Assembly: GCF_004010195.1 (NCBI RefSeq)
Contig: NC_057717.1
Location: forward strand, 56,431,126 to 56,495,125
Direction: 5' to 3'
From: Chiloscyllium plagiosum
Taxonomy: Eukaryota
DNA: 64,000 nt
Shown piece by piece: positions 1-60,329 of the stretch (its first letter is position 1; each line of letters begins with the position of its first letter). The notes below the pieces were generated by a model. That model had not been told where the DNA came from, ran no database searches, and was given only the letters and a program-made list of their open reading frames with translations. The position numbers and the translations under genes were made by a program.

Positions 1-180
1 GTTTCTACATTGTTATTGCACTGTTAACATGGTTGGTGACAGTGAACCGCTCCAGTTATCTCATTCAATGCAATCAGCATGCCAGTTGAAACTTCATAAA
101 GTCTAGTATTACATGAAAGGTAAATCGCAAAGTTTTGGAAATGAAGGAAAAACAGATACATTAGGGTGCGATTTTTACTG

Positions 181-322
181 AGAACATAGAACATAGAACA
201 TTACAGCACAGTTCAGACCCTTCGGCCCTCGATGTTGCACCGGCCTGTCACACCAAGCTGAAGCCCATCTAACCTGCACTATTCCATGTACGAATATATG
301 CTTGTCCAATGATGACTTAAAT
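181..322 (-). mobile_element. CR1 LINE 3' end fragment
   Basis: (agaacat)n tail followed by the reverse-complement CR1 3'UTR (acagcacag..cccttcggccctcgatgttg). Confidence 0.75.
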
Positions 323-874
323 GTAATGAGAAGTAATAATTAAGGATTAATCTAATCCACTCTTTACAATCCAAAGTCAAAACTCAACTATCCAGTTCAA
401 TCACAAGGTCTGTCTTCCAAACGTTTACAAGTCATAGAGAAATATAAATACAATTTCAAAAGTATGTTGTTCTAATAGTTCTTGCTCTTGAGCAAAGATG
501 TCATGACTATGTTATAATGAGTCAAGAATCACTTTTCAATTCCGCTGTACACTACACACAAGTTTTCTGGCTGTTAAAGATCATTGGTAAAGTCCATTTG
601 GAAATTCTGCCCAATTCGATAAAGAACAGATCAGTTTCACTGCTTTGATCAGTTTCACAAATAACTTGAGTTAATTAATTGTTATGTCCCTGATTAAACT
701 GGAATTGCAGGAAAAAAATAAAACAGTGACTGAATGATTTCATCTGCACAGTGCTTTAGGTGTTCCCAATCCATGAGTTTTAAATTAATAGTTACATTTT
801 ACAACAAAATATCAACTGAAGAGTCATTTTTTCGGAAACAACTACTATATGGAATTATATGACCAAGGCTTCTT

Positions 875-1080
875 CTGTGTGCTCCAGTTTTCGCCAACCA
901 ACCCCCCACATCCCCCCCCACCAAAGTCACAAAGATGTTCAGGCTCGGTGAATTGGCTGTGCTAAATTGAAGATAGAGTTCAGGAGTAAATATAGGGTAG
1001 GCGGAATGGGTTACTTACTGTTCAGAGGGTCAGTGTGGAATTGTTGGGCGTAATGGCCTCTTTCCATACTGTTGGAAATC
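875..1080 (+). mobile_element. HE1/V-SINE, 5'-truncated
   Basis: aaagatgttcagg..gtgaattggctgtgctaaattg V-domain and ggcctctttccatactgt 3' end. Confidence 0.75.
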
Positions 1081-1299
1081 TACTGTAAAACAGTAGGAAT
1101 GCTTGTTGCGAACGCAGAGAACGTATTTTACATCAATGTGTTCAGACATATGCAGAGTTCAAAAATTTGCAGAAGACATGAACGAGAGGATAGCAGAGCA
1201 CGTTGTTTATTGAAACTGAAAATGGAGTATTTTTTTGTAATTAATGTACTTGACCAATTATTGCAATGTACCTAACATTAGTTAAGTGTAGCGATCATT

Positions 1300-1610
1300 C
1301 AGATTCGATTTCCTACACTATGGAAACGGGCCATTGTCCCAGCAATTACACACCGATCCTCTGAAGACTAACCCACACAGACTTATTACCCTACCCTATA
1401 TATACCCCAGAGGAATGCACCTAACACTATGGACGATTCAGCATGACCAATTCACTTGGCCTGCACATCTTTCGATTGTGGGAGGAAACCCACGCAGACA
1501 CAAGTGAGAATGTGTAAACTCCACACAGACAGCCACCCGAGGCTGGAACCAAGCCCGGGTACCTGGATCTGTAAGGCAATAGTGCTCACCACGAAACCAC
1601 CGCGCCGCCC
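1300..1610 (-). mobile_element. HE1/V-SINE
   Basis: Reverse complement of GGGCGGCGCGGTGG..agcactattgcc tRNA head, V-domain and 3' tail. Confidence 0.85.
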
Positions 1611-4600
1611 ACATTTACTTAAACATCAGTTAAAGTGGGCAACTCCAGACAGAAGCATGTTTTCAATTCATGCATTTTTAAAACGTTTTCGTACGTTACA
1701 AAACAGCTAACAAGAAACTGAAACTCCCATTGTAAAGAAAACCTGATAGTAAATACTTGCCCTAATTGTTTTAACAGAAATGCATTTCCACACTGGGATG
1801 CAGTATTGGCTTTGTCGAGAATATGCGAAATCTTCAAGTACAAGAAATGTTTTAAGAATATGTAAAAATAATTTAGAGAATAATCCATTTCCTCTGGACC
1901 AATGCATAAATTTGCGATATTTCCCACCTCAATAATTTTGTTAATTATAATGACTTATTAAGTTGATTAAATCGGTGATTATCTATGTTCATTGTGAACA
2001 CATTCTCGTTCACATTAATGGGTATCCTCTGGTTCATTCCTACGATGAATGTTCAATTACAGTGAATAAATTGGACGTGAGGAATTGAGCAGATATATCT
2101 GCAAAGAACAAGACTGTTGTATGGTATGTTTCAGTGCTATCTCCGACTAACTTGTCAACTGGTCCTGACTATTTGTAAGTTGTCCGGTTCCAATACCTGA
2201 ATCTCCGACAGTTCAATTTCATCTCGCGCTTCGAAACCACACTTATCTGCCAGAAATGCAATATTTGACTAGGTGCCTCAGAATTGAGAGCCCTGGCCAT
2301 GTTGCCCTATCAGAACGAACACTTCAGTAACAAAAGGCAGATTGCAAGAGTTTTAAAATTGGTTGTTGGCAACAAGGGATATATGATTGAGCGAGGCAGA
2401 GGAATATATGCTGCTTATTTTCTTTGTGCCTCGGTTGTCCGGGACGTGTTTAGCGGCACAATGTAGGATCAGAAGTTATTTTGCATCGTATTATTTGAAA
2501 ACCGTTTGTCGGCTTTTAATGTCACTGGCAATTGTTATAATACATTTCAAAATATTTTAATCTATTTCAAACTAAGTAGACCATCTGGTGCAGCAACATT
2601 AAGGAGTAAGAGGAAGGGAGTTCAACGTTGAAGTCCAGTGACAGTGAATTTATGGCAGTGCAATTCCTAGTTTTATTCCTCTGTAGTTCCCATAGGCTTT
2701 GGACAATTCAGAACTGCAGTTAAAGTATTCCTGGAGAATTGTTGTAATGTTACTTTCATTGTGTAAACATTCTGGAACAATCCTTGTTTGTTGGAACGTG
2801 TTAATAATTAGCATGGTTTATGCACTGTCAAACAGATGGGCTGTATTCTCCGGTATAGTGTCGAGCTCATTGTTTTCAGGTCTGCTGTGATATTGTAGTA
2901 GTGACCCTGACTCCATGCCACGTGGCCTGTGTTCACTTACAACCTTTTAGAGACGTTTGTGACATCATCTCTAATCAGTTTAATTCGGTGCAAAAAAGCA
3001 GATCGAGTCGTTTGGGTATTTGTTGGAATTCCACTCACAGAAGCCAGTGAAATCTATTCAATAGCAGTCCTGATTTGTGTCTCTTAGATATTAAACAAAC
3101 TTTTGGCGGTTAGCCGCTTTTTCCAAATCAATATTTGTTCACAAGCTTTTGGACATCGCTAGCTGGGGTTAATGGAGTAACTCCTCAAATAAATCCCAGC
3201 TTTTAAATTACTATTCTAACAATATCATGTATAACTAATCCAGAATGAATTGATTTGAAGCATATTTGATGAGATTATGCCTAGGTTGTTTTATTTAATA
3301 TTAAACCAGTGCTGTGGCTGAATTTGATTGTTCAGTACAGTGGGGGTTCCGCTGAATCCAACACTTCCAGCAGATGGTGGTAGCCTTTCAACTGGTCTTC
3401 AGTTGCTATCTCACATCATCTAGTACCTCTGCTAAGAATCCTTTTTCAACAGCAGTCAAGCAAACGTAATCGCTGTCTAATTCAGCAGGTGTGAGTTCTT
3501 GTGCCAAAAACATGAAAACATTTTTCTGAAGAGGGCGTCTCGGAACGTGAAATGTTACCCTGTTTGATGAAACAAATTGTTCAGAGAGAAGATGCATTTG
3601 AAGAAATTGAGAATGTTCAGAGATATTTAATATCAGAAAATCATTGAATGTGAGTGCCCTGATTTCAAGCTGTATTTTCACAATAAACTGTTTCGTGAAG
3701 TAACAACACATTCCAGAATGCAGTGACTGCTGTAATTGGGTGGGAGTTGTTTTGATCACTCAAATAGAGAATGTCAATCCTCCCGTTCCAAATAATCAAC
3801 AGATTTTTTAAGAATGTGTGAAACAATTAATATGTTAAAGTATTTTAATAAAAAGTGTTCAGTGTCAGTGCGAGCCTAATGAAGGACACAATTTTAGAAA
3901 GGTGCAGGAGGAGGGCACTCAGCCCCTCGAGCTGTTCCACCATTTACTTAGATCATGGTGCATCTGCGCGCTAATTTCTCAGGCCTCTCTTTGGCTAAAA
4001 CTCTTTACCATCTTTGACTAGCAAGCAAAAACTAGCCCTGGTTCAATGATTTTACTTCCTTTAACAAAGGGAGAAACCATTGTTTAAAGACATTTCTGTG
4101 AGAAGTTAAAGTGACCCAATGAGGCTAGATTTAACTGGTCATGAAAGTAAGCTTTAAATATTTGATAACTTGCAGTTTAAACATCCCAGTCATCACATTC
4201 CATTAATTTAAAATTATATTTCTTTATTCCAAAGAAGTATACTGCGTGATTGCTGCGCTAAAAAATGAGGAAATCTTCATTCCCATTATATGATTAAGAA
4301 TTAACACTGTTTGTTCAGAGAAAAAGAAGGCAAACCACACAGAAGGAAACCATTCACAATTCCCGTAAATACTTTTCAATGCTTCCAGTGATTATCTGCA
4401 TCTCTAGATAGGTATGGAAGTGTCAGACTTTTCCTTGAGAAACTAATCATCATCAGCTTACTTGAATTGCTAAAGTTTGTGTCGGGCAGTGTTTTGTCGA
4501 GGAATAAGACGGTGTTGATTTCAGCGTCTGTAAATTATGAAGGAGCAAAAAATGCCTTTAATAGAGTGATATGTGCTCCTTGTCAGATGTGGGAGTTTAA

Positions 4601-7600
4601 AGAGAGATTAAGCATTATTGCGGATTATAAGTGCTGTTGGATGCGAATCTTATCAGATCGAATGGATCGGTTGGAGAGACAGTTACAAGCAATGAGGAAA
4701 TTGCAACAGCAACAGTACATTATGGATGGCAGTTATAGGAAGGGGGAAAGTCTCAGATACAGTCACATAGATGGGTTAACTCCAGGAAAGGTAAGATAAT
4801 TAGGCACCTAGTGCAGGAGTCTTTTGTGGATATGCACATTTCAATCAGGTATGCTGTTTTGGAAAATGAAGGGGATGATGGAATCTCAGGGAACATAGCA
4901 CGAACAGCCAAGTTTCTGGTATTGAGACTGGCTCTAATGCAACGAGGGGTACGTCGGCTTCCAAGAGATCAATTGTGTTCGGGGATTCTGCAATCCGAGG
5001 TGCAGTCAGACCTTTCTGTGGCCAGCAGCGAAAAAGCAGAATGGTGTGTTGCTTCCCCGGTGCCAGGATCAATGATGTCTCAAAGAGTATGCAGAATGTT
5101 CTCACGGGGGAGGGGGGACAGCAAGAGGACATTGTTTAAAGACATTTCTGTGAGAAGTTAAAGTGACCCAATGAGGCTAGATTTAATTGGTCATGAAAAT
5201 AAGCTTTAAATATTTGAAAAGGTTGAGATGATGAAGAGAGATTACAGAGAGTTCGGCAGAAATTTAAAAAGGAGTTCCTCGAAAGTAGTAATATCTGGAT
5301 TACTCCAAGTGCTTCGAGCTAGTGAGGGCAGGAATAGGAGGATAGAGCAGATGAATGCGTGTCTGAGGAGCTGGTGTATTGGAGAAGGATTCATATTTTT
5401 GGATGATTTGAATCTTTTTTGGGTTAGAAATGACCTGTACAAGAAGGACGGATTGCACCTAAATTGGAAGGGGACTAATATACTTGCAGGGAAATTTGCT
5501 AGAGCTGATCAGAAGGATTTAAACTAGTAAGGTGGAGGGAGGGGCGGTGGTGGGACCCAAGGAGATTGTGAGGAAAGAGGTCAATCTGGCACTAGTACAG
5601 TTGAGAACAGAAGCGAGTCAAACAGTCAGAGCAGGCAGGGACAAGGTAGTACTAATAAATTAAACTCCGTTTATTTCAATGCAAGGGGCCTAACAAGGAA
5701 GGCAGGTGATATCAGGGCATGGTTAGGAGCATGGGACTGGAATATCATAGCAATTACAGATACATGGCTCAGGGATTAGCAGGACTGCAGACTAATGTTC
5801 CAGGATACAAATTAGAGGGAAATTGAGAAACAAACGTGTAAAGAGATTTCAACTATCTGTAAGAATAATATGGTGGTTATGGTAGGCGATTTTAACTCTG
5901 TAAACATAGACTGGAAATGCCATAGTGTTAAAGGTTTAGATGGAGAGGAATTTGTAAGGTGCGTACAAGACAATTTTCTGATTCAGTGTGTGGATGTATC
6001 TACTAGAGAAGGTTCAAAAGCTGACTTACTCTTGGGAAATAAGGCAGGGCAGCTGACGGAGGAGTCAGTGGGGGAGCACTTTGATGCCAGGGACCATAAT
6101 TCTATTAGATTTAAAATAGTGATGGAAAAGGATAGATCAGGACTATAAGTTGAAGTTCTAATTTGGAGAAAGAACAATTTCGACGGTATTAGACAAGAAC
6201 TTTCGAAAGCTGATTGGGGGAAGATGTTCGCAGGTAAAGTGACAGCTGAAAAATGGGAAGCCTTCAGAAATGAGATAATGAGAATCCAGAGAAAGTGTAT
6301 TCCTGTTAGCGTAAAAGGAAAGATTAGTAGGTATAGGGAATGCTCTATGACTAAAGAAATTGAGGGTTTGGTTCAGAAAAAGAAGGAAACATATGTCAGA
6401 TATAGACAGGATAGATCGAGCGAATCCTGAGAAGAGTATAAAGGAAGTAGCAGTATAATTAAGAGGGAAAACAGGAGGGAAAAAAGGCGACATGAGATAG
6501 CTTTGGCAAATTGAATTAATGAGAATCCAAAGGGTTTTTACAAATACATTAAGGACAAGAGGGTAACTAGGGAGAAAATAAGGCCCCACAAAGATCAGCA
6601 AGGTTGCCTTTGTGTGGAGATGCAGAAAATGGGAGAGATACTTAATGAGTATCTTGCATCAATACTTAGTGTGGAAAAGAATATGGAAGATAAAGACTGG
6701 AGGGAAATAGATGGTAACATCTTGCAAAATGTCCAGATTACAGAGGAGAAAGTGCTGGATGTCTTCAAACGGTTAAAGGTGGATATGTCCCCAGGACCTG
6801 ATCAGGTGTACCCGAGAACTCTGTGGGAACCAACAGAAGTGATTGCTGGGCCTCTTTCTGAGATATTTGTGTCATTGATAGTCACAGGTGAGGTGCCGGA
6901 AGACTGGAGGTTGGGAAACGTGGTGTCACTGTTTCAGACGTGTGGTCAGGACTAGCCAGGGAACTATAGACCAATAAGCCTGTCGGCGGTGGTGGGCAAC
7001 TCGATGGAGGGAATCCTGAGGGACAGGACCTACATATATTTGGAAAGGCAAGGACTGATTAGGGATAGTCAACATGGATTTGTGCGGGGAAATTATGTCT
7101 CACAAACTTGATTTATTTTTTTGAAGAAATAACAAAGAGGATTGATGAGGGCAGAGCATTAGATGTGAGCTATATGGACTTCATCAAGGCGTTCGACAAG
7201 GTTCCCCATGAGAGACTGATTAGCAAGGTTAGCTCTCACGAAATACTGGGAGAACTCGATATTTGGATATTGAACTGGCTCAAAGGTAGAAGACAGAGGG
7301 TGGTGGTGGAGGGTTGTTTTTAGACCGGAGGCCTGTGACCAGTGGAGTGCCATAAGAATCGGTGCTGAGCCCTTTACTTTTTATAATTTACATAAATGAT
7401 TTGGATGCGAGCATAATAGGTAGAGTTAGTAAGTTTGCAGATGACACCAAATTTGGATGGGTAGGATACAGCAAAGAGGGTTTCCTCAGATTACAACGAG
7501 ATCCTGACCAGATGGGCCAATGGGCCGTGAAGTGGCAGATGGAGTTTAATTCAGATAAACGTGAGATGCTGCATTTTGGGAAAACACTTCAAGGTAAGGT

Positions 7601-7748
7601 CATAGCGAGTGTTGCTGTACAACGAGACATTGAGGGGGAGAAAGTGAGGACTGCAGATGCTAGAGATCAGAGCTTAAAAATGTGTTGCTGGAAAAGCGCA
7701 TCAGGTCAGGCAGCATCAAAGGAACAGGAGAATCGACGTTTTGGGCAT

Positions 7749-7786
7749 GATTCCTGAAGAAGGCCTTATGCCCGAAACGTTGATTC
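7749..7786 (+). ncRNA. Minimal hammerhead ribozyme motif, duplicated copy
   Basis: gattc CTGAAGA AGGCC ttat GCCC GAAA CGTT gattc (one stem II mismatch). Confidence 0.6.
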
Positions 7787-8108
7787 TCCTGTTCCTTTGA
7801 TGCTGCCTGACCTGACCAGTGGAGTGCCACAAGAATCGGTGCTGAGCCCTTTACCTTTTATAATTTACATAAATGATTTGGATGCGAGCGTAAGAGGTAG
7901 AGTTAGTAAGTTTGCAGATGATACCAAATTTGGATGGGTAGGATACAGAAAATAGGGTTTCCTCAGATTACAACGAGATCCTGACCAGATGGGCCAATGG
8001 GCTGAGAAGTGGCAGATGGAGTTTAATTCAGACAAACGTGAGACGCTGCATTTTGGGAAAACACTTCAAGGTAAGGTAATACCGAGTGTTTCTGAACAAA
8101 GAGACATT

Positions 8109-8324
8109 GAGCAGGAGAAAGTGAGGACTGCAGATGCTGGAGATCAGAGCTTAAAATGTGTTGCTGGAAAAGCGCATCAGGTCAGGCAGCATCAAAGGAA
8201 CAGGAGAATCGACGTTTCGGGCATGATTCCTGAAGAAGGGCTTATGCCCGAAACGTTGATTCTCCTGTTCCTTTGATGCTGCCTGACATGCTGCGTTTTT
8301 CCAGCAACACATTTTTAAGTTAAG
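8109..8324. mobile_element. Short foldback Penelope-derived element with 11-bp TSD
   Basis: About 75-bp inverted arms (gtgttgctggaaaa..cgtttcgggcat / atgcccgaaacg..ttttccagcaacac). TSD aaagagacatt at 8098-8108 and 8325-8335. Same sequence as the end of the Penelope element at 51460. Confidence 0.8.
8225..8262 (+). ncRNA. Minimal type-I hammerhead ribozyme motif (Penelope-associated)
   Basis: gattc CTGAAGA A GGGC ttat GCCC GAAA CG TT gattc: core boxes, stem II, palindromic ACGT stem III, GUU cleavage triplet. Confidence 0.7.
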
Positions 8325-9259
8325 AAAGAGACATTAAATGCAGATTCATAGCTCGTTGCAAGTGGAGTAGAATAGTGAATAAGGCGTTTGGTATGCTTTA
8401 TTTTATTGGTCAGAGTATTGAGTACAGGAGTTGCAAGGTCATTTTGCGGCTGTACAGGACATTCGTTCGGCCACTGTTGGAATAATGCGTGCAGTTCGGG
8501 TCTCCTTCCTATCGTAAAGAAGTTGTGAAACTTGAAAAGGTTCAGAAAAGATTTACAAGGATGTTGCCAGGGTTGGAGGATTTGAGCTATATGGAGAGGC
8601 TGAACAGGCTGTAGTTGTTTTCTCTGGAGCGTCGGAGGCTGAGGGATGACCTTATAGAGGTTTACAAAATTATGAGGGGCATGGATAGCGTAAATAGGCA
8701 AAGTCCTTTCCTGGCCTCAGGGAATCTGGAACTCGAGGGCATAGGTTTACGGTGAGAGGGTAAATATATAAAAGAGACCGAAGGGGCAACTTTTTCACAC
8801 AGAGCGTGGTACGAGTATGAAATGAGCTGTCAGAGGAAGTGGTGGAGTCTGCGACAAATGCAACATTTAAGAGGCATTTGGATGGGTATATGAATCGGAA
8901 ATGTTTGGATGGATATGGGCTGTGTGCTGGCAGGTGGGATTAGATTGGGTTGGGATATCTGGTCGGCATGGACGTGTTGGACCAAAGGGTCTGTTTCCAT
9001 CCTGTACATCTCTATTACAGTAAGATGGAGACTAATTTGGAGGAAAGCTTTCAGGTGAAACATTTAGATGTGTACACGCCCTTATCCTCAAAGTTCACAG
9101 ATTTGGAACATGCTGCCGAAGCGACATTTCAACATGCAAATTAAAATCGGAAGAAGGCACCTAGAATCGTATTCCATTCATGGGATCATCATAAATCCTG
9201 CTGCTCACCAGCCTTTCGAACACCCGATAAAATTGAATACGATTGTAAACTGTTCAACG

Positions 9260-10010
9260 AAAGAATGGTGAACCTTGAATTCTCTGCCACAGAAATTAAT
9301 TGAGGTAAAAACATGAAGTGATTTCAAGAAGAAGATAGATTCCTTTAAAAAATGCTACATGTATGTGGGGAAAAGGCAAGCAGGGTACAATATTGGTTAA
9401 AAGCCATGAAAACATATAATAGGGCATGTTTTGTAAGTTTGCACATGACACCGAAATTGGTGCTTTAGTTGTCAGTGAAAGTTATCTGAATGTACAAGAA
9501 GATGTTGATCAGCTGGGCCAATGGGTTAAGGAGTGACAGATGGAGTTTAATTTAAATGGATACGACATGTTGCTTTTTGAGAAGATAAATCAGGTCACAA
9601 CTTACAGAATTAATGGTAGGGCACTGGGTAGTGATCTTGAAGAGAGGGAAGGGGGAATCAGACTCATAGATTCTTGAAAGCATTGTCTCAAGTAGCTAGC
9701 GTGTCGAAGGTGTTTGGCGCATGTGGCTTCATTGGTCAGAGCATTGAGTGCAGGCGTTGGGGCTTCATGTTGTAAATGTACCAGATATTGGAATGAACTG
9801 CCAGAGGAAGTGGTAAATGCAGAAAAATTTACAACATTTAGAAGACATTTGGACAGGTACAGGAACAGGATCGGTCTGGATGGATATGTGATAAAGGCAG
9901 ACAAATTAGTGTAATTTGGAAACTCTGGTCAGCATGGATGGGCTGGACCAAAGTAACTGTTTCTGTGCTACATAACTTTATGACTGTCTGACTTTATGGT
10001 GGAGTAGACT
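9260..10010 (+). mobile_element. Degenerate CR1 fragments
   Basis: Remnants of the KFADDTK region, WNELPEEVV..FRRHLD, and 3' tail. Confidence 0.75.
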
Positions 10011-10029
10011 CAAAGTTGGAAGCTGGTGA

Positions 10030-10650
10030 GCAAGTGAGGGGATAGATTGGGAATGTGGGAGAGTTTGGGCTGGTAGGCTGGGAGGTGTTGGCTTGCTGCG
10101 GGTTAAGCTTGTATGCACCCCATCTGCAGGCTGGCATCCAGGCAAATGGTAATGGTCACAAGAATAATTTGGTCGAATTGTGCTTGGTAGGTGAGGGATA
10201 GTCTGAGTTGAAATGCCTGAGGGATTTCTTTGCCAAGCTTGCTAGCAGAGATGTCAGCAAGGTGCTAGTCTGGTTTGTGGAGAGGTGCGCAGGGTGCCAG
10301 GCTGATTAGTGCAGAGGTGGGCAGTGAGCCACTCTGTTTCAGTGGTAGAAGGTCACTGTAATGAAGTAGCAGGTGGACGTGATGTCAAAATGCAAATCTG
10401 AGAGTCTGGAAAAATGGCAGGTGGTAAAGGACAGATGCAAAAGGAGCTAGGATTCAATTTGCACAGGTTGACTTGGGTTAAATGAGAGGTCAGTGACCAA
10501 GGGCTGAAGTAATGTCTGGGGGAGTGGGGTTCTGACAGAAACTGTGCAAATGATGGTGCCAGGTGCTGTCAAGGCCAGATTCAAAATGGACCACGTGCAG
10601 GGTGGCAGCAGTGGAATTGAGTGAAAGGAATTGAGATTATCTGTCCACCT
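10030..10650 (-). mobile_element. Old L2-like LINE fragment (probably continues at 11355-11540)
   Basis: Minus strand shows degenerate endonuclease-like text (ctgcacgtggtccattttgaatctggcc); purine-rich + strand. Weak call. Confidence 0.35.
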
Positions 10651-10653
10651 GGA

Positions 10654-11355
10654 ATATAGAACATGGAATGTTATAGTCCAGTATAGGCCCTTCAACCCTC
10701 GATGTTGCACCGACCTGTGGAACCAATCTGAAGCCAATCGATGCTGCACTATTCCACTTTCATCCATATGCTGATCCAATGACATTTTAAATGCCCTTAA
10801 AATTGGCAAGGATACTATTGTTGCAGGCAGTGCATTCCTCGCCCATAGTACTCTCTGAGTAAACAAACTACCTCTGACATCCGCCCTCTATCGCTCATCC
10901 CTCAATTTAGACCTTTGTCCTTCTCCTGCTAGCCATCGCCAGCCGAGGAAAAGGAGTCTCACTGTCCACCATATCGAACCCTCTGATTGTCTTATATGTC
11001 TCAATTAAGTCACCTCTCAATCTTGGTCTCTCAAACAAAAACAACCTCAATCCCTCATCAAACCCTACCGCCACACCAGACAACATTCTGTTAAACCTCG
11101 ACTGAACTCTTTACAAAGCTTCCACATTCTTCCTATAATGTGGTGACCAGAACTGTACACAATAGTCCAAGTACGGCCACACCAGAGTTTTGTACGGCTG
11201 CAGAATGATCTCATGGTTTTGAATCTCAGTCCTTCTTCCAATGAAAGCCAACTCAAAGTATGCCTTCTTAACAATCCTATCAATGCTACTGGCAACCTTT
11301 AGGGATCTATGTACATGGACACAGGGGTATCTCTGCTCATCTACACTATCAATAT
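10654..11355 (-). mobile_element. CR1 LINE 3' part
   Basis: YKTLVWPYLDYCVQFWSPHYRK, FTQRV..RNALP, agaacat tail. Confidence 0.88.
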
Positions 11356-11809
11356 GGATTGCCTTGGATGAGTTTCTTGTGATAGGGGTGCTGTATTCCG
11401 GGCATGAATTGGTGAGTAACAGGGTAGGGTTTGTCAATGTGTATGGAAATTTATGTCTAGACAGAGAGGGAGAGCAGTGGTTTGTCTGTGACAGATGAGA
11501 GCCTTGATGGTGAACTGCGTGTCAGTTTGACATTTATTAAAGTTAAAGATTACTAGTTAATTTTTCAAATCATATTTACGTACATAGTCAGCTCAGTTAG
11601 CTGCAATGCTCCAAAGTCTCTGAAACTTTATGGTCCTCCATTTTTCAGATGCCTCCAGGATTCAGATAATTGTAAGTTAGAAGTTTCGACTTCCAGACAA
11701 TATGCATAAGGTCAGCTGTGACAGACATCCTCCAGTCCCAGTGCTCAGCTCCTGTTTGTGCTGCTGCAGCGACATTCTTCCCAGAGAGGACATTCTGCCT
11801 TGCATTGAT

Positions 11810-11925
11810 AAATGAGGAAGGATCACTGGACCTGAACCGTTCACTTGGATTTATCTCCAGAAATACTGCCAGCTTTCGGGGTTTTCAAGCAATTTCTCGC
11901 AATTTTGTTTCTGATTTCCAGCAGT
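11810..11925 (+). mobile_element. Penelope-terminus-derived short repeat (second family), degenerate
   Basis: gaggaaggatcactggacctgaaccgtt..tttgtttctgatttccagca; reverse-complement relative of 28895-29045. Confidence 0.5.
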
Positions 11926-11937
11926 ACGGTACCTCGT

Positions 11938-12230
11938 GGGGTGGCACCCTGGTTACGTGGTTAGCATTGCTGCCCCACAGTCGTAGGGACACTTGTTCGA
12001 TTCCAGCCTCGGCTGATTGTCTGTGTAGAGTTTGCACTTTCTCCCCATGTCTGTGTGGGTTTCCTCCCAAAGTTAAAACATGTGCAAGCTGGGTGAATTG
12101 GTCACGCTGTGTTCAGGGATTGGGAGGTTAGGTCCATTAGTCAGGGTGAAATGTGTCTGGATGGGTTATCTTTCAAAGGCTGGTTGTGGACTTGTTGGGT
12201 CAACTGTCCTGTTTGCAAACACTGTCGAAT
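11938..12230 (+). mobile_element. HE1/V-SINE
   Basis: gggtggcac..gtggttagcattgctg..gttcgattccagcctcgg..V-domain. Confidence 0.85.
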
Positions 12231-12580
12231 TTTGATGAATCCGGATTTCCTTGGTTTGTATTTTGTGAAACCTCTCTGCTCTTCACTTGCAACCCAGTGA
12301 AAGTGTCAGTTGGTGAGATTTTCAAATAGTTACTGGCCGTTGGATCAGGATGTTCTTCTTCATACATTTTATGGTAATGGTCAAGGTAGAGGGTTTGTTT
12401 CTGAAGAGGAAACCAATAGAGCATGATCAACAACTGGTAAGAAACAAAAATAAACTCCAGTTATGCTGTAGACTTCAGCAGGAGCATACTGGCAAACGTT
12501 TATAGCTGAGGATACATTTGAGTAACTGATAAGGACAAATTAACAGTACCTAGTGTGCTCAATTGGTCATTATATCCTAG

Positions 12581-12882
12581 AGACACCGTCTCCCCCCACG
12601 CTTTATGGCTTGGTCTCCTCCTGTCAGGACCACAACAACGGTTCTACGATCTTCGGTTGTTTGGCGATGGACTATTTCCCTGAAATAACCAAGGTAACCT
12701 TGAAGAAAGGTGGGGAGCTAATCACGACTGGATTGAAGACTTACCCATCAGTGATATACAACAAGGGAACCTACACCCAGAGCAGCCAGTTAACCCTGCC
12801 CGTGTCAGCAGTAGATTGCCCCAGCAAAATCTACTGGTTCAACAAAGCGGGTCGCACAAGAGCAAAGAAATTCCATGTTAAG
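12581..12882 (+). pseudogene. IGHM: Immunoglobulin mu heavy-chain constant domain 1 (Cmu1/CH1) exon, shark type, frameshifted
   Basis: Acceptor tatatcctag| and donor AAG|gtaagt. Translation [79 protein letters not shown] closely resembles shark IgM CH1 ([36 protein letters not shown]). The core Trp is Leu (TTG). An inferred 4-nt deletion at the second canonical Cys makes the exon 302 nt instead of 306. The ancestral frame continues [14 protein letters not shown] then TAA. Confidence 0.9.
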
Positions 12883-13489
12883 GTAAGTGTTGTGGGAAAT
12901 TAGATAAACAGAACATCTATGATTAATATGAATAAGGCATTATTTATAACAGTTTTCACAGAATCACCTTATACAGCACAGGAAAAGACTCTTTGGTCCA
13001 TCCAGTCCACACTTATAAATAACAGCCACCCAACTATCCACAGCCTTGTGTGTCTTGCCTTTGCAAGTATGGATCTAAATAATTCCCTGTTTTGTTCTTG
13101 CAGTTAATAGAGCATATTAATTAGCCCTGTGTTGGTAATAATTTTTATCTATCTGTCATTCGCCGTTTAGTTGTTACAGTTACTGTATGGATTACTGCAC
13201 CTCTCTAGGTACGTAAGCAAAAGTTCAAAACTAAGTATTGTCTATAATTATTACAAAAATAGTTAGCATTTTAAAGACACCAAATGTGAAGAGGAATGTT
13301 GAAAGATAGATAACACTGAGGAATACAAGAAGTTGCAAGCAGTCATTAATTAATTTCCAGTATGGCCAAATAATTAGCAAATGAATATCCACACACTCAT
13401 AAACGTAAGTTGTTACATCTTGTTCAAATACGCATGTCTAGGTGAGTGAGTCAAACAAAGGGATCTCAGACAATTACATCAGTCACTAA

Positions 13490-14090
13490 CAATTTCACCA
13501 CAGGTTCCGAAGACCATAAAAATGCAAACACAGCTCTAAACTTTATCTCTAAAGTGATAGATTTGAAAGGAGGGTCCTTATAAAAATTAGTTGACTACAA
13601 TTAATGGTATTGCCTGCAGTTCCAGTTGACGCATTATAGAATGCACGAGAGGGAGTGAAGAGAAGATTTATAAGATGATAAACAAGTTTATGGCTTTTCA
13701 GGGAATAATTGTTGTGCTGTTCACTTCTCTCTTGAATAGAAGGCTGATAGTTCTAAAATTATGAAAGATTTTGAAAAGGGAAGGTACCGAGAAAACATTT
13801 CTCTATGGGGTAGAACTTAATTAGAGGCTATAAATATAAGACAGTGCCTCAGAAGAAACCTCTTCACTGAAAGCATGATGAGAACGGGGAATGTGTGACC
13901 AGACGGAATAGTTTAAATCAATCGTTTAGATGTATTTCAAGGAAACTTGGTGAGCACTTGGAAGGAATGGGAATATTGAATTGCAATGGGCGACTTAGAT
14001 GACAAAAGATGTGAAACAGCTTGAGTGGAGCATAACCACTGGCATGAACTGATTGCGCAAAATGCTCTGTTTCTGTTCTGTATTTCCTTT
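13490..14090 (+). mobile_element. Old CR1-clade LINE 3' fragment
   Basis: Degenerate YC.QF.S..Y, agaagattta and 3'UTR ctgtttctgttctgta. Confidence 0.6.
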
Positions 14091-15741
14091 GTCATTCTAT
14101 ATAAAAAAACCACCATTCTTTGAAACAAATACTGCATTAAGAACATTTAGAGGAATTACAAAGTATTTCACAAAAAATGGCACAAAAGTATACAGCACTG
14201 AATGCAAATGATTTTATCACATGGCCATTCTTCACTCTTTAATTGATTGCACTGAAACAGCAGTAATCACAATACACTTACTAGGAGTAGGAGTAATCCG
14301 TTGTCCATGAACCAATTGGGGGATTTTATTGAGTCATTAATGGCCTCAGGAGGGCCTGCCAACCTGGTCCTGGGAATGTTGTGTACTCTCGAGGCCTCAC
14401 GGCATCTTTCACTCACATACTTTGATTTCCAGTTCCTGTAATGATCGCTACCATGGACAGGAGACTGTTCCAGTATGCAGATGGGCTACCCTGTTGTGAG
14501 CCATGAGGTACTTCTTTAGGAGGGGCATCCTGCAGGCGTGCCTCCAGGATGCAAGAGGAGGTCTCCCACACAATGGAAGACCCACTTGCTGCAAGTAAGC
14601 TGCCAGCATTGGCGGGAACAAACTCTACAATGACCACCTGAGTGGCCATCCTTTCCCTAATTTGTGATCAATAAAATATTACGGACGTGGTAATATGAGA
14701 GGCACTGAAGCTCCTTCCTTCCCTAGTCTTCTTCCACCCTTTTATCCACCTATTGACCGTGCAGCCTATCCCGAGAGGGCTGATAGAATCCAGTCCCATT
14801 TCAATTTTCAAGAACACGAAGGGCTGGCAAACTGGTCAAAATTGATTAGGATCAAGATAAACAATCTTGGCCTGACTGTCAAATTCCAAAGGGAAACTTG
14901 ATATGAGTTCACCAAAAATGACGGAAGTACAGAAAAACCACTTACATCCATCAGAAACAAATTTCTACGAATGGCAAACGGGTGGTTTGCTATTTGGAAT
15001 GGAGCAGTGCATTTGAAAAGTCAACGAGGAGCAGCAATGTCTTGTGTCGGGCGTATGCACAGTTTGAAGCTGTTTGCTGGTTCTGTTTTGCTAAAGGTTT
15101 GGCAGATACATTCCAATATGAATTAATTAAATCTGCCAATGTGGACATTAAATACTCACATTTATGAGTAGCTTTAACTGGAAGAGGATGCACCGAATGC
15201 CAAACAGGACAAGGTTGTTGGCATGTATGAGAAGACATAATCTTGTGGGATAGCCAGACAGCTGTTTTTATGAATTTTAAAAAATACTAATCTTTATAGT
15301 TATCCTGCTGTTCCAAGAATAAGTAAGTGATCAAACCCAACAACAGAGAAGAGGATGATATGTTGGAGCATTCTCAAAGGCTGTAATGGGAGTAGAAAGA
15401 GCTGCATAACACAACAGAACTGAAGTAAAAGAATGCTCTCTATGACTCTTCGTTATGGATTATTTCAGTGTTAAACAGGTGGTGAAAATCTAATTGAGGA
15501 TCTTAAATATTTTGGAAAAGATGGGCATGGAAATTTGGATGTGGTTCCTTTCACAAAAGAAACCTTGAAATGTTGGCCATTTTCACTTCCGAAGAATAGT
15601 TGAGAAATATTTCCATGAACCATCAAAAGTATTTTCAATCCTACAACTGCAAATCTTTTATTTCTGGATTTACTTTTGCCACTAGGAAGTGTTGAATAAA
15701 TAAGCTAATGTTATAAATAGGCGGCACAAAAGAATATAAAA

Positions 15742-26615: not shown

Positions 26616-26855
26616 GAAGGAACCGTTTTCTCTTTTTATCCTCTTCTGTCTTTTCCACCCCCTCTCCCACTCCCAGCATCTCCATATCTGTACTACTATC
26701 TGCGCAGTCACTGACTAACTTAACAAAATTGGTTGATCAGGCTTGAAGTACTGAATCTGAAGTCTGTGAATGTTTTTTTGTTAAATTGGTTTGGATTTAA
26801 TTCTGGAAGAGTCTGCTTGTTTTAAATGACTTTATTTGTGCTCTTTGATCAATAG

Positions 26856-26936
26856 CATTTCTGGAAACATTGACAGTGCAAACGGTGAGGAAAATGGACG
26901 TGCATGTTCTCCACCAGCATTTCAAGTAATTACAAA
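26856..26936 (+). CDS. Candidate exon (phase 2-2)
   Basis: ctttgatcaatag| ... |gtaagt; ISGNIDSANGEENGRACSPPAFQVIT. Confidence 0.35.
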
Positions 26937-26984
26937 GTAAGTTTAATTGCATGGGTGGCTAAGTTAGTCATTATTTAGAATACG

Positions 26985-27582
26985 AGAGAAAGTGAGGACT
27001 GTGGGTACTGGAGCTCAGTAAAAAAAAGTCTGGTAATGGAAAGCACAGCCGTTCAGGCAGCATCGAAGGAACAGGAGAGACGATGTTTTGAGCATAAGCC
27101 CTTCATCAGGAAAGTGCGGGTGGCAAGGAGGCTGGGAGATAAATGGGACGGGGTTGGGTCTGGGCGGAAGGTAGCATGGAATGCCATAGTTAGATGAAGG
27201 TCGGGAGTGATAGTTTTAGGTAAAAGTGGAGGATGGATCAATGTCGATTTCATCAGTTTCCTCATCTCCTCTTCCCCCACCTTATCCCAGATCCAACCAT
27301 CCAGTTTTGAACTGCCCTCTTGAACTGTCCTACCTGTCCATCTTCTTTCCCACCTATCCGCTCCACGCTGCACTCTGACCAGTTACCATAAACGCCTACC
27401 CTCGTCTACCTATCACATTCGAACCATCTGCCCCCAGCCCCTACTCCCTCCCATTTATCTCTCAGCCCCCCATGGCCCTTCCCCACATTCTTGATGAGAA
27501 GCTTTTGCTTGAAACGTCGACTCTCCTGCTCCTTGGATGCTGCCTGAGCAGCTGTGCTTTTCCAGCACAACACTGTTTGACT
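26985..27582. mobile_element. Inverted (foldback) Penelope 3'-end element
   Basis: Both arms match the 51460-51900 Penelope terminus; inversion point near 27240; degenerate hammerhead motifs near 27080-27110 (-) and 27488-27520 (+). Confidence 0.8.
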
Positions 27583-27699
27583 CAATATTCAGAATTTTAA
27601 ACTGTTAGGAAATAGCTGGAGAGCTGGTGGCTTTTGAAACTTTAGACACTCTTCAAAGGGCAACAGTTCAGAGGCAATGAATTAATCATATTTGTAACA

Positions 27700-28290
27700 G
27701 CTGTCAAAGGAACTTGCCTATGTTCACTCCCAAGTCCTATTACTATGTGATACTGCAAAACCTCTCCTTTAGAAAATTGTAGTTACTTTTTGAAGATCTC
27801 AGTCACTGCCTCCACCACACTATTAGGCACAGCATCCAGTTCCCAATTATGCTATTTTTTAAAAAAAAACATCCTTTTGTTTGTTTTTGTTTGTTGATCA
27901 TCTTAAATCAGTGTCCTTTTCTTCTCAAGCCTTCTGTCATAAGGAACCGTTTTTTCTTATCTGTCCTATCCAAATACCTCATGATTTTGAACATTTGTAA
28001 AATACCTTCTTAGTTTTCTTTTCTCCAAAATAGGACCCCAGGCTTCTTCAACCTATTCACATAATTGTCTAACTGCTCATCCCTGGTACCAATTTTGTGA
28101 ATCTTTTCTGCGCCCTCTTAGTCCACTTCCTGAAGCGTGGTGTTCCAACTAGAGTTGAGGTAAAATCTGTATTTTTAAATTTAATAATTGTCATTACTTC
28201 GATGTGTGGCATGCAATGCTCCTATTTATAAAGCTCAGAATCCTAACAATATCTTTAACCTGTAATGCCAGCTTCATAATTTGAGCGCAT
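27700..28290 (-). mobile_element. Old CR1-clade LINE fragment
   Basis: Degenerate reverse complement of ctcatgattttga, ccctggtaccaattttgtgaatct, cttcctgaagcgtggtg. Confidence 0.55.
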
Positions 28291-28894
28291 ACATAAAATA
28301 TATTAAGTTACAGACAGAGATCATTTAAGGAAGCACTGGTCATTGTATCAAAAACTATTAGCTTGGCAATAGAAGGAACAAAAAAAAGCAAAATAATTCT
28401 GAATTGGTGGAGGGCCGATTTAAATGGGGCAAGAGGGCATTTGTAGCAAGTGAATTTGAGCACTGTAGTGAAATAATAGTTTGCATTACAAGAGGCGATT
28501 GTTCAGCTACGGTCTGAGAATATTTCCATAAACAGTAAATGGTGGCAAAAACAAAACTCTCGTTCCCTGTATGATGATTCAAGGGAAATGTATTACTGAT
28601 AAACTTCGTGAGAACCAAACTAAATATAGGTAGTTTAGAGGGGAAGTAAAGAGTAAGGGAGAGCGGCAACTAACTTTAAAACTGAATCCAAATGTCATCC
28701 TTAGTCACAAACAGTGAAAGGGTAACAAAAGAGTGAGTGGGGCCATTTATCATAAATTTCCTGTTTAAACTGTATAGGGGCAGCGGCCTGTCTGAGGCAT
28801 TATGAAAAGGAAGTTGATGCCCAATCCATGGTGGGAAAAAAATGAAGCTAGTTGAGACTTGAATGAGTTGAAGTTTGACAGAATTTTAGAAAGG

Positions 28895-29045
28895 CTAAAA
28901 TAAAATAGAATTGCAGATGCTGGAAATCTGAATCAAAAATGAATTGCTGGAGAAACTCAGCAGGTTTGGCAACATTTGGGTGAGAAAGCAGAGTTAAACG
29001 TTTTTGAGTCCTGACCCATTGAGTTTCTGCAGCAATTTCTGCTTC
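28895..29045 (-). mobile_element. Penelope-terminus-derived short repeat (second family)
   Basis: tgcagatgctggaaatctgaa..tgctggagaaactcagcagg..gagttaaacgttt. Confidence 0.55.
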
Positions 29046-29451
29046 AGTTAGAAAAGCTGATTGTTCTTGCTGTTGGGAAGTAAAAATCAATGAATTGGAG
29101 ACACCTGAGGATGCTGAGATAAATAACCTTGAAGCTGGAATGGTACTGTCCACGATAACCTAATCCTGTACAAATACAGGGGTGGATCAGAGGACTGGAA
29201 AATTACAACATTTGCAATGTTTTTTTGTCGCGAGTGTGTGGATAAATCCAGCAACTAGATTCATCTTAGTGGTAGGAAGGCTTCTAAGGAACTGTAATCT
29301 CAGCTTCAAGCAACAATATTGCGGAGCATGTAGCCTAACTTTTTATGCTGTCTAAGAAATCCTCAACAGTTCGTATGCAAAAATGTTTACTAGAATCATC
29401 TGATGAAGGCTTATAATTATAATTCTTCACTTTTCATGTGTATTTTAAAGG

Positions 29452-29786
29452 GAGATTAGATTAGATTAGACTCCCTATCGTGTAGAAACAGGCCCTTCGG
29501 CCCAACATGTCCACACCGACCCTCCGAAGAGTATCCCACCCAGGCCCATTCCCCTAACCTATATTTACCCCGACAAATGCAACTAACGATATGGGCAATT
29601 TAGCTTGGCCAATTCACCTGACCTGCGCATCTTTGGATTGTGGGAGGAACCGAAGCACTGGGAGTAAAACCATGCAGATACTGGGAGAATGTGCAAAATC
29701 CATACAGACAGTTGCCTGAGGCGCGAATCGAATCTGGGACTCTGGAACCATGAGGTAGCAGTATTAACCACTGAGCCACCATGCTG
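29452..29786 (-). mobile_element. HE1 SINE, full length
   Basis: (agatt)n tail, V-domain, accactgagccaccatgct head. Confidence 0.9.
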
Positions 29787-29908
29787 ACCCGAAGTTGTAG
29801 CGTTTAACTGTAGAAGTAAGTGCTTGCACGAATCTCTTACTTTATTATTTGTGTTCAGTTGCAGCTGTGAAACAAACATGAAGTCCAAACTCTCCCCAAT
29901 TTCTGCAG

Positions 29909-29954
29909 AAGTTAACAATTTAAATTCACCAGAAAAGGAAGTGACAGTCAAGAA
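29909..29954 (+). CDS. Candidate micro-exon (phase 1-2)
   Basis: ctccccaatttctgcag| ... |gtaagt; VNNLNSPEKEVTVK. Confidence 0.4.
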
Positions 29955-30616
29955 GTAAGTTTCATCCATCGTATGACCATGTTATGTTTTGTGTGCAATA
30001 CATTAATGTGAAAAGGAAATTTCAGTAGCGCTGGTGACTGTATCTCAGATTGTCAGAAATGTCTTCATGAAGATGTAAATGTTTCCCTGCTGTATGACTG
30101 TGTAAGACACACCATAAAAACAATGACATGAACACACCTGATCATAGACCATTCATGAAAAATGGCTTCTCAATTCTTTGCATAGTTTCTCCCGAATCCT
30201 TAAGGACAAGGAATGTTCCGCACTTAGTGGAGGACAACCAACTGTTCAATGTGAAAATGTTGAGTCTATCTCAGGTTGACATTTCTATTCTATGTAGCAA
30301 ATATAAGTTATTGAAGGAGTGCTTCATTCCTTGCCCATTTTTTCTCTGCATCATCATCTGCCACTGTCACTGCTGGCACGTTGCTTTGGCCCTCAGGGTC
30401 ATTTCTTGTAAGTTTCCCGAGGAATCTTAAAGATGTTTACACAATTTTGTGGAACCTTACGTTTGGATATGACCTTGTTTAATGAAATTAGCTGATCAGG
30501 GTGTGAAATGCTGCATTTTGAGACTTCAGTATTTCATTTTAATGGCTGGCAACCAATTATATACTCAAACACCATTTTAATTTGCTTTTTATTTTGTGGT
30601 TTATGATCAATCGCAG

Positions 30617-30688
30617 AAGTTTAACTGCCCAAGCATTCAAGAAAATGGTCGACTCGGTTCTGAGGGAATGAAAAGCACCGATGAAACA
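30617..30688 (+). CDS. Candidate exon (phase 0-0)
   Basis: gatcaatcgcag| ... |gtaagt; KFNCPSIQENGRLGSEGMKSTDET. Confidence 0.35.
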
Positions 30689-30860: not shown

Positions 30861-32032
30861 AAAGAAGCTGCTTGATTCGCAACTCCAATGATCGCATTAT
30901 TCCTAGAGAATGATTTGATTCGACTTTCAGTGTAGTTCATGCAAAACTCTTCCTGTTAATTATATGTCCTACATTATCAGAATTTTGGAGTTGTTCATCT
31001 CGGATTGTCATTTGTCAAGTTTGTGGTAATGATGCATTAGGGATGGGATGGTTTCCCTCTTCACACTACTTCACTACAAGCTATGCTGCAAACTCCATGT
31101 GAATGTGTGTTTGAAAAGGAATTACACCAATACATAGCACAGTCATATAATGCGTATGTGTTTTCTTCCTGGCATCCTGACTTTGGTAGCCCTCCCATTC
31201 CATTCTGCTGTTGTATGATGTTCATTTATTCTAATTTGCACAGCTTCCTCCTGAATCCAAGAAATCCAAATGTTCTTCTGAAACGAGTTTTCATGTTTGA
31301 AATGTGATAGAGGATCTTTCAAAGATATTTGACTGTGGAAAGCATTGCACAAATGCAATTCCAAACCATTGTTGGGAGATTGCTGAGGTTGTTTTACGGC
31401 TCTGAATAATGTCAGTTAATACTTTGGAAGCATGAGAATCAAAAAAAAAGAAGCTGCTGATTCGCAACTCCAATGATCGCATTATTCCTAGAGAATGACT
31501 TGATTCGACTTTCAGTGTAGTTCATGCAAAACTCTTCCTGTTAATTATATGTCCTACATTATCAGAATTTTGGAGTTGTTCATCTCGGATTGTCATTTGT
31601 CAAGTTTGTAGTAATGATGCATTAGGGATGGGATGGTTTCCCTCTTCACACTACTTCACTACAAGCTATGCTGCAAACTCCATGTGAATGTGTGTTTGAA
31701 AAGGAATTACACCAATACATAGCACAGTCATATAATGCGTATGTGTTTTCTTCCCGGCATCCTGACTTTGGTAGCCCTCCCATTCCATTCTGCTGTTGTA
31801 TGATGTTCATTTATTCTAATTTGCACAGCTTCCTCCTGAATCCAAGAAATCCAAATGTTCTTCTGAAACGAGTTTTCATGTTTGAAATGTGATAGAGGAT
31901 CTTTCAAAGATATTTGACTGTGGAAAGCATTGCACAAATGCAATTCCAAACCATTGTTGGGAGATTGCTGAGGTTGTTTTACGGCTCTGAATAATGTCAG
32001 TTAATACTTTGGAAGCATGAGAATCAAAAAAA
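30861..32032. repeat. Near-perfect 585-bp tandem duplication
   Basis: Units start aaagaagctgc at about 30861 and 31448; ORFs 31083 and 31668 are near-identical and offset by 585. Confidence 0.95.
31244..31294 (+). CDS. Candidate exon (phase 0-0), duplicated at 31829-31879
   Basis: tttattctaatttgcacag| ... |gtttga (weak donor); LPPESKKSKCSSETSFH. Confidence 0.3.
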
Positions 32033-32071
32033 ATATTCCGTGTTTTTAGCTGATGAAGAAAGGACATTTAT

Positions 32072-59965: not shown

Positions 59966-60329
59966 AAAACAACTCAGCTCATTGTTGTGTCATTTAGACT
60001 GGAAACTTCCTGAATGACGACAAACGACAAGACAACACGAAATGGGGGAAATTGTTGGTAACGATGCTTGTTTTCAGACCTTGAACGATGACTAACTCGG
60101 CAGGAATTCATTCAGAAACAGAAGTCTCCAGAACATTATTCATGAGGATTCAAACGTGCGCAGGGAAACTCAACGGATTGCTAATCACTTGTTTAACCAC
60201 TTGTTCACGACTACAACACGGAACCACGAAGTAATATTTCCAGTAAAATATCATGCAATAATTCCATCAGGAAAACTGAACTTGGATCACCCGGGTTCAT
60301 TCTGCCACAAACTTGATGGAGAGATTATC

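What the first reader, a model, noticed from the sequence alone, without database searches (positions are those of the whole stretch)
12581..12882. Orphan IgM CH1 exon whose frameshift keeps it open and changes its splice phase
Seen: a single shark Cmu1 exon with intact AG and GTAAGT sites. The core Trp is Leu, and an inferred 4-nt deletion removes the second canonical Cys. The ancestral frame has TAA just before the donor, but the shifted frame is stop-free to the donor, turning a phase 1-1 Ig exon into a phase 1-0 exon. I could find no V, D, J, RSS, CH2-CH4, secretory tail or TM exon in about 12.5 kb upstream or 51 kb downstream. Known: shark IgH genes are compact V-D-D-J-C clusters, many of them pseudogenes. 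Inference: this is either the relic of a deleted cluster or a displaced Ig exon inside another gene's intron, where it might be spliced in as a non-Ig-folding cassette.
Basis: partly seen in the sequence, partly recalled or inferred. Interest (0 to 1): 0.7.

Follow-up and report, generated by a model that had tools for sequence, protein, structure and literature searches.

The report
Broken shark antibody gene, tail deleted
The lone antibody exon is ordinary: it still sits in its own shark IgM gene cluster, which lost its back half in a roughly 13 kb deletion, likely has its front half hidden in an assembly gap, and is likely decaying as a pseudogene.

Summary
The exon is real as described: 302 nt, AG/GTAAGT, Trp to Leu, and a 4-nt deletion that 28 of 29 other fetched Cmu1 loci lack. 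It is not displaced. Window 1-13052 is collinear with the J-Cmu1 intron and Cmu1 of other IgM clusters. A 2,971-N gap directly before the window lies between V-upstream DNA and the J intron, exactly where leader-V-D-D-J belong (2.6-3.7 kb in two reference clusters); these segments were not seen. Downstream, gap-free sequence jumps at 13076-13085 from the Cmu1-Cmu2 intron to the flank about 4 kb past the TM exon. That removes 12.4-13.3 kb (Cmu2-4, tail, TM) at a 6-bp exact, 9-of-10 microhomology. The open shifted frame needs no selection. The same deletion leaves 17 of 26 paralogues open, and the 96%-identical partner copy has an in-frame TGA. The lineage shows 14 replacement changes to 1 silent, against 37 to 29 in intact paralogues. 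A 302-nt exon would frameshift any host gene. No host exon and no locus-specific RNA read were found, but both tests were weak. Reads did not confirm the junction. Verdict: a truncated IgM pseudogene beside a second one. Low interest.

The parts
1..12580 (+). J-Cmu1 intron of the IgM cluster; its first ~1.6 kb, plus predicted leader, V, D, D and J, fall in the 2,971-N gap just before the window
   Evidence: Collinear at 79-88% with the J-Cmu1 intron of cluster C8:41.80 Mb and of the neighbour cluster. Gap at -2970..0. DNA at -5555..-2972 matches V-upstream DNA. The 97% partner contig C74428 runs into the gap to the bases right after a J donor.
4483..9021 (.). LINE fragments inserted in the J-Cmu1 intron
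   Evidence: Break in collinearity with the reference intron; Pfam Exo_endo_phos_2 at 5816-6148 and RVT_1 at 7356-7757.
12581..12882 (+). Degenerate IgM Cmu1 exon, 302 nt, intact AG and GTAAGT, phase 1-0
12700..12702 (+). Core Trp codon changed to TTG (Leu)
   Evidence: Alignment. Shared with C61845. The Trp is also lost in three other loci: L026 (Leu), L011 (stop), L024 (TAT in an already frameshifted exon).
12835..12836 (+). Site of the 4-nt deletion that removes the second Cys and shifts the last 15-16 codons (exact placement ambiguous by a few bases)
   Evidence: gap in the window and C61845 only; 28 of 29 other loci have the 4 bases.
12879..12881 (+). TAA in the ancestral frame
   Evidence: shared with C61845.
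12883..13075 (+). Remnant (~190 bp) of the Cmu1-Cmu2 intron; read-through meets TAG at 12901-12903
   Evidence: 85-87% to the same intron in 4 reference clusters, with gapped matches in 2 more.
13076..13085 (+). Deletion junction with microhomology (6 bp exact, TAAATA; 9 of 10 bp); Cmu2, Cmu3, Cmu4, secretory tail and TM removed
   Evidence: Junction aligned with C77239 (5' side) and C82064 (3' side); deleted span 12.35 kb by the neighbour cluster and 13.27 kb by cluster C8:37.71 Mb. No N at the junction.
13077..15416 (+). Post-TM 3' flank of the IgM cluster
   Evidence: 80-81% to the flank 3.5-4.1 kb past TM in two clusters; 92-94% to C82064 and C40052. Of 39 other genomic matches, 35 start at query base 137 or 138, one at 140 and one at 163; none covers the 5' side.
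26692..30649 (-). Further cluster 3' flank, inverted
   Evidence: Collinear inverted matches to the neighbour and C8:37.71 Mb flanks.
51460..52436 (-). Further cluster 3' flank, inverted
   Evidence: 81% to the neighbour flank, directly continuing the part that ends at 14934.

Best explanation
The exon is the Cmu1 of a shark IgM minicluster that sits in its native place and has lost Cmu2 to TM in a 12-13 kb deletion, and it is likely a dead pseudogene decaying without selection. Inferred history: (1) a local inverted duplication gave two head-to-head clusters; (2) this copy lost purifying selection and took Trp to Leu, the 4-nt deletion and the TAA, all shared with the partner copy C61845; (3) a deletion, likely by microhomology-mediated end joining, fused the Cmu1-Cmu2 intron to the post-TM flank; (4) LINE insertions and an inversion of the flank accumulated. 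The order of steps 2 and 3 is not known. Leader-V-D-D-J are predicted in the 2,971-N gap before the window and were not seen. The open shifted frame is a by-product of the ancestral sequence. Any transcript would have no in-frame constant or TM exon to splice to and would end in a non-folding domain.
For: Shown: collinearity with other clusters on both sides. The gap sits where V-D-D-J belong, and 97% partner contigs enter it from both ends. The junction with microhomology lies in N-free sequence. The tree puts window + C61845 together (100/100), sister to the neighbour cluster + C77239 (100/99). Lineage changes are 14 replacement to 1 silent, against 37 to 29 distinct changes in 16 intact-exon paralogues (Fisher p=0.007), and do not differ from the neutral 76% (p=0.14). 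17 of 26 paralogues are open after the same deletion (the script's raw count was 18 of 27; L024 was dropped because its own 4-nt insertion put the printed tail in another frame). C61845 has an in-frame TGA. A contig in another sample's run carries the Leu base and has 162 letters over 161 places, so a 1-nt insertion is inferred (X5 record 11). 11 of 27 paralogous Cmu1 exons are also defective. The neighbour cluster is a pseudogene too.
Against: V, D and J were not observed. Reads did not confirm the junction: runs X1 and X5 have no depth at 13098-13250, which fits absence of this allele, or the tool's filter. No laid contig was shown spanning the 4-nt deletion; its independent support is contig C61845 from the same assembly. 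The 14:1 ratio rests on 15 changes and is formally also compatible with positive selection. The flank after the junction has no 97% partner in my searches (best 92-94%), so a fusion of two sister clusters, or a deletion on one haplotype only, cannot be told apart from a simple fixed internal deletion. Four N gaps in the 151 kb downstream (228, 500, 486 and 1,035 N) were not inspectable.
Confidence: 0.9

Rival explanations
1. The cluster has no usable constant region, but its predicted V-D-D-J would still rearrange. It could then act as a VDJ donor to other clusters' Cmu by switch-like recombination, or give short VDJ-Cmu1 read-through transcripts.
For: V-upstream DNA and the whole J-C intron are retained and the acceptor is intact. 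A review states that isotype switching can occur between shark clusters (PMC5192425 passage). Transcripts of non-functional rearrangements are cloned from shark B cells (PMC2435157 passage). An AATAAA lies at 14670.
Against: V, D, J and their RSS are unseen. Rearrangements in nurse shark IgM pseudogenes were not observed by Southern blot (PMC2435157 passage). A cell that rearranged only this cluster would have no membrane IgM. 3 of 3 RNA reads over diagnostic sites were paralogue-type, a very shallow test.
Confidence: 0.06
2. The downstream loss, or the whole arrangement, is an assembly artefact or a variant of one haplotype, and an intact 3' half exists.
For: The assembly is fragmented. Four other Cmu1 exons without a following in-line Cmu2 that I examined all have N gaps within 4 kb downstream. 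Reads did not cover the junction. The closest 3' flank copies are undeleted.
Against: This junction has no N and shows a clean microhomology, far shorter than an assembly word. The undeleted copies C82064 and C40052 are 97% to each other and only 92-94% to the window, so they look like a sister cluster. Cmu1 would be broken in any case.
Confidence: 0.03
3. The exon has been co-opted as a spliced, non-Ig-folding cassette of an unrelated host gene.
For: Both splice sites are intact and the frame is open to the donor.
Against: The exon is not displaced. 302 is not a multiple of 3, so inclusion in any existing intron frameshifts the host (and phase arithmetic). The open frame is lost in the closest copy. 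No non-transposon Pfam hit in 53 window ORFs of 110 aa or more or in 146 unmasked ORFs of 70 aa or more in window and flanks; short exons would be missed. No database protein of 187-2000 aa matched residues 61-106 (weak).
Confidence: 0.01

Closest known systems
Elasmobranch IgM miniclusters (VH-D1-D2-JH-Cmu) and their pseudogenes, e.g. nurse shark Groups 6-8 and G2C
   Same: Same layout, same Cmu1 (an intact paralogue is 75-77% identical to nurse shark mu chains and 93-94% to Chiloscyllium punctatum proteins). Pseudogene clusters are documented (PMC2435157 and PMC5192425 passages).
   Different: This copy lacks Cmu2-TM through a mapped deletion. It lies head-to-head with another cluster about 12 kb away, whereas the passages give 120 kb or more between nurse shark mu clusters. 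I could not read the primary papers describing nurse shark pseudogene lesions (not held).
IgM1gj of nurse shark
   Same: An IgM cluster that lost a constant exon.
   Different: IgM1gj lacks only CH2, is germline-joined and is expressed (PMC5192425 passage). Here all exons after Cmu1 are gone and Cmu1 has lost its Trp and second Cys.
Zebrafish VDJ-Cmu1-TM splice form
   Same: A mu chain with only Cmu1 as constant domain.
   Different: It is an RNA splice form of an intact gene with TM exons (PMC5192425 passage). Here TM is deleted and the donor is phase 0.

Membership tests
Elasmobranch IgM minicluster (as a locus) | Cmu1 exon homologous to shark mu chains | tested here: met
   81-82% over residues up to the deletion against Chiloscyllium proteins P0003 and P0004; C1-set.
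Elasmobranch IgM minicluster (as a locus) | J-Cmu1 intron and V-upstream DNA in cluster order | tested here: met
Elasmobranch IgM minicluster (as a locus) | Leader, VH, D1, D2, JH with RSS | not testable with these tools
   They fall in the 2,971-N gap; partner contigs stop just short on both sides.
Functional IgM gene | Cmu2, Cmu3, Cmu4, secretory tail and TM exons downstream of Cmu1 | tested here: not met
   None in 151 kb downstream by tblastn; no Cmu2 match for this cluster among 56 genome-wide; junction mapped.
Functional IgM gene | Cmu1 with both Cys, core Trp and phase 1-1 ends | tested here: not met
Unprocessed (duplicated) pseudogene | Disabling lesions with introns retained | tested here: met
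   Frameshift, lost exons, retained intron.
Unprocessed (duplicated) pseudogene | Loss of purifying selection | tested here: met
   14:1 against 37:29, Fisher p=0.007; neutral expectation not rejected, p=0.14; only 15 changes.
Unprocessed (duplicated) pseudogene | No functional transcript | tested here: inconclusive
   Five reads laid from X21 (about 2% of the run read), all 90-95% alike, 3 of 3 at diagnostic sites paralogue-type; none from X22; both one sample.
Co-opted cassette exon of a host gene | Frame-preserving length (symmetric phase) | tested here: not met
   302 nt, phase 1-0.
Co-opted cassette exon of a host gene | Flanking host exons on the same strand | tested here: inconclusive
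   No non-transposon Pfam hits; short exons or very long introns would be missed.
Co-opted cassette exon of a host gene | Open frame conserved in close copies | tested here: not met
   TGA in C61845; inferred 1-nt insertion in an X5 contig.

The most novel reading that the evidence does not exclude
A shark IgM cluster stripped of its constant region keeps a working V-D-D-J and serves as a pure VDJ donor, passing rearranged variable regions to other clusters' Cmu by switch-like recombination. That would be a natural step from cluster towards translocon organisation.
Probability: 0.05. Interest if true: 0.5.

Novelty: new member of a known kind. Interest (0 to 1): 0.08.

Why it matters
As it stands it matters little: it is one more dead IgM cluster among dozens, with a neatly mapped deletion that illustrates birth and death of shark IgH clusters. 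It also shows that an 'orphan' Ig exon at a window or scaffold edge can come from an assembly gap. It would matter if the hidden V-D-D-J were intact and used, since constant-less clusters acting as VDJ donors would bear on how separate V and C arrays arose.

Tried and rejected
Host gene: Pfam on 53 of the 62 window ORFs of 110 aa or more (the 8 that overlap N gaps and the exon's own ORF were left out) and on 146 of 165 unmasked ORFs of 70 aa or more in the 264 kb (9 had been scanned, 10 upstream ones were not scanned) gave only LINE and LTR-retrotransposon domains. A protein search with the exon's residues 61-106 among longer proteins gave 3 candidates and no hit (weak). Sequencing runs: no RNA holder listed; the best DNA share was 0.37. 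The one lay obtained was too shallow to test splicing and did not cover the junction. A regex scan for RSS found none in window 1-13000 but was crude. Searches for the missing V-D-D-J on unplaced contigs found 97% partners that stop short of the promoter and just after J. The idea that Cmu1-only units are a common real structure in this genome was not supported: the four other cases examined all have N gaps within 4 kb downstream. Earlier scan notes near this place: none. Literature searches listed no paper describing this locus or cataloguing IgM clusters of bamboo sharks; three primary papers were not held and no supplements were read, so a published annotation may exist. No structure was predicted.

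Full report
Observation. The exon runs 12581-12882 between AG and GTAAGT. Its frame from 12583 is stop-free to the donor, and 302 nt makes it phase 1-0. It matches Pfam C1-set and antibody CH1 domains in the PDB. An intact paralogue from the same genome is 93-94% identical to proteins labelled Chiloscyllium punctatum and 75-77% to nurse shark mu chains, so the genome is likely from a bamboo shark or a close relative. A search of the own genome gave 75 matches, a lower bound. Of the 29 best other loci aligned, only the unplaced contig C61845 shares the 4-nt deletion; 28 have the four bases.

The 5' side is a gap, not a loss. The window is G000:C8:56431126-56495125, and a run of 2,971 N ends one base before it. 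Window 1-13052 is collinear with the J-Cmu1 intron and Cmu1 of other clusters, apart from LINE fragments at about 4483-9021. Position 1 maps about 1.6 kb after J of the reference cluster. The DNA just before the gap matches V-upstream DNA and stops about 0.5 kb short of the V exon. The span between these points is 2.6 kb in the neighbour cluster and 3.7 kb in the C8:41.80 Mb cluster. Two unplaced contigs at 97% identity enter the gap: C40461 by 160 bp from the left, and C74428 from the right as far as the bases that follow a J donor. Leader, V, D, D and J are therefore predicted in the gap. I did not see them.

The 3' side is a real-looking deletion. tblastn with six shark IgM proteins finds no Cmu2-4, tail or TM in 151 kb downstream, and a genome-wide Cmu2 search has no match for this cluster among 56. 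Homology to the Cmu1-Cmu2 intron ends about 200 bp after the donor. From 13077 the sequence matches the flank 3.5-4.1 kb past the TM exon of two other clusters. In a genome-wide search with a junction-spanning query, none of the 39 other matches covers the 5' side, and 35 start at query base 137 or 138. Aligned with the closest undeleted sequences on each side, the junction at 13076-13085 shows 6 bp of exact and 9 of 10 bp of near microhomology, and the lost span is 12.35-13.27 kb. There is no N at the junction. Four other Cmu1 exons without an in-line Cmu2 that I checked all have assembly gaps within 4 kb downstream. Microhomology-mediated end joining is inferred from the signature (recalled knowledge). 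Against this: the two DNA runs laid have no depth at 13098-13250, so reads do not confirm the junction; the tool warns that a hole proves nothing. The closest flank copies, C82064 and C40052, are undeleted, 97% to each other and 92-94% to the window. I read them as a sister cluster, but a fusion between sister clusters is not excluded.

The open frame is not special. The shift covers only the last 15-16 codons. Removing the same four columns from complete paralogues leaves the tail stop-free in 17 of 26 (raw count 18 of 27, with L024 dropped because its own insertion changes the frame, and L019 incomplete). C61845, 96% identical and sister to the window copy (100/100), has TGA at codon 70 of that frame. 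A contig of depth 28 in run X5 carries the window-type bases at 12684-12687 and 12701 and has 162 letters over 161 places, so a further frameshift is inferred in that allele or sister copy. On the lineage since the split from the neighbour cluster I count 14 replacement and 1 silent change before the deletion site. Sixteen intact-exon paralogues show 37 and 29 distinct changes (Fisher p=0.007). The lineage does not differ from the neutral 76% (p=0.14). The sample is small. Eleven of 27 paralogous Cmu1 exons carry defects of their own.

Co-option. An intron has one phase, so a cassette exon must be a multiple of three to keep a host frame; 302 is not (established splicing logic). In the paralogues Cmu1 ends in phase 1 (306 nt), so a phase-0 donor would join the normal downstream Ig exons out of frame. 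Read-through adds six residues and stops. Pfam scans of 53 and 146 ORFs found only retroelement domains; short exons would escape this. RNA evidence is thin: 5 reads from X21, all 90-95% alike, 3 of 3 at diagnostic sites of paralogue type, and none from X22, the same sample.

Context. A second cluster lies head-to-head on the minus strand: V at -14390, J at -15116, Cmu1 at -27086, TM ending at -36447. Its Cmu1 is the nearest chromosomal relative (100/99). It is also a pseudogene: Cmu1 donor CT, Cmu3 frameshift, stop at the end of Cmu4. Its V, D1 and D2 are germline-joined. A local inverted duplication followed by decay of both copies is inferred.

Known biology. Shark IgM is encoded by 15-200 miniloci, with pseudogenes among them, and rearrangements in nurse shark pseudogenes were not seen by Southern blot (PMC2435157, passages). 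A review notes partial germline joining, IgM1gj, switching between clusters and spacing of 120 kb or more (PMC5192425, passages). PMC12227049 (passages) describes minicluster organisation and linkage to TCR alpha/delta. PMC7677710 (passages) has no mention of IgM in its main text; I did not read its supplements. PMC3360817, PMC2590587 and PMC3190574 were not held and are known to me only as citations in the review. Five searches (listings only) showed no description of this locus.

Verdict. A truncated IgM pseudogene in its native place, confidence 0.9; a new member of a known kind; interest 0.08. The boldest reading still open is a constant-less cluster that donates VDJ to other clusters (probability 0.05).

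Noticed in passing
L032-L034; G000:C8 about 56394679-56416900, minus strand (window-relative -36447..-14250): A complete IgM cluster lies head-to-head with this one, about 12 kb between the V regions. Leader and V are open. V-D1-D2 are germline-joined while the D2 3' RSS and J stay unjoined. Cmu1 donor is CT, Cmu3 is frameshifted and Cmu4 ends in a stop.
   Followed up: partly
window 26692-30649 and 51460-52436: The cluster's 3' flank continues in inverted order after about 15.4 kb, which suggests an inversion of tens of kb with repeat expansion; two N gaps lie inside it.
   Followed up: partly
L069 (C61845), L070 (C77239), L082 (C40461), L097 (C74428), L095 and L099 (C40052, C82064): Small unplaced contigs pair with chromosomal IgM stretches, or with each other, at 96-97% identity; likely second haplotypes, which would inflate cluster counts.
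   Followed up: partly
L115-L127 and L057-L062; G000:C8:41.65-41.84 Mb: Dense IgM pieces (5 V, 4 Cmu1, one Cmu2-4 set) with 25 N gaps in 190 kb; either tight tandem clusters or scaffolded fragments.
   Followed up: partly
window 56920-63992 and window-relative 129591-137169 (L047-L048): An inverted pair of long repeats, 82-86% alike; LTR-retrotransposon RNase H and integrase zinc-finger domains lie just before the downstream copy in L047.
   Followed up: no
window 30861-32033: Two adjacent 588-bp copies at 99.3% identity; a recent tandem duplication or an assembly duplication.
   Followed up: no
P0005: A predicted Chiloscyllium punctatum protein reads V-J-Cmu1-TM without Cmu2-4; it may be a gene-model artefact or another truncated cluster.
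   Followed up: no
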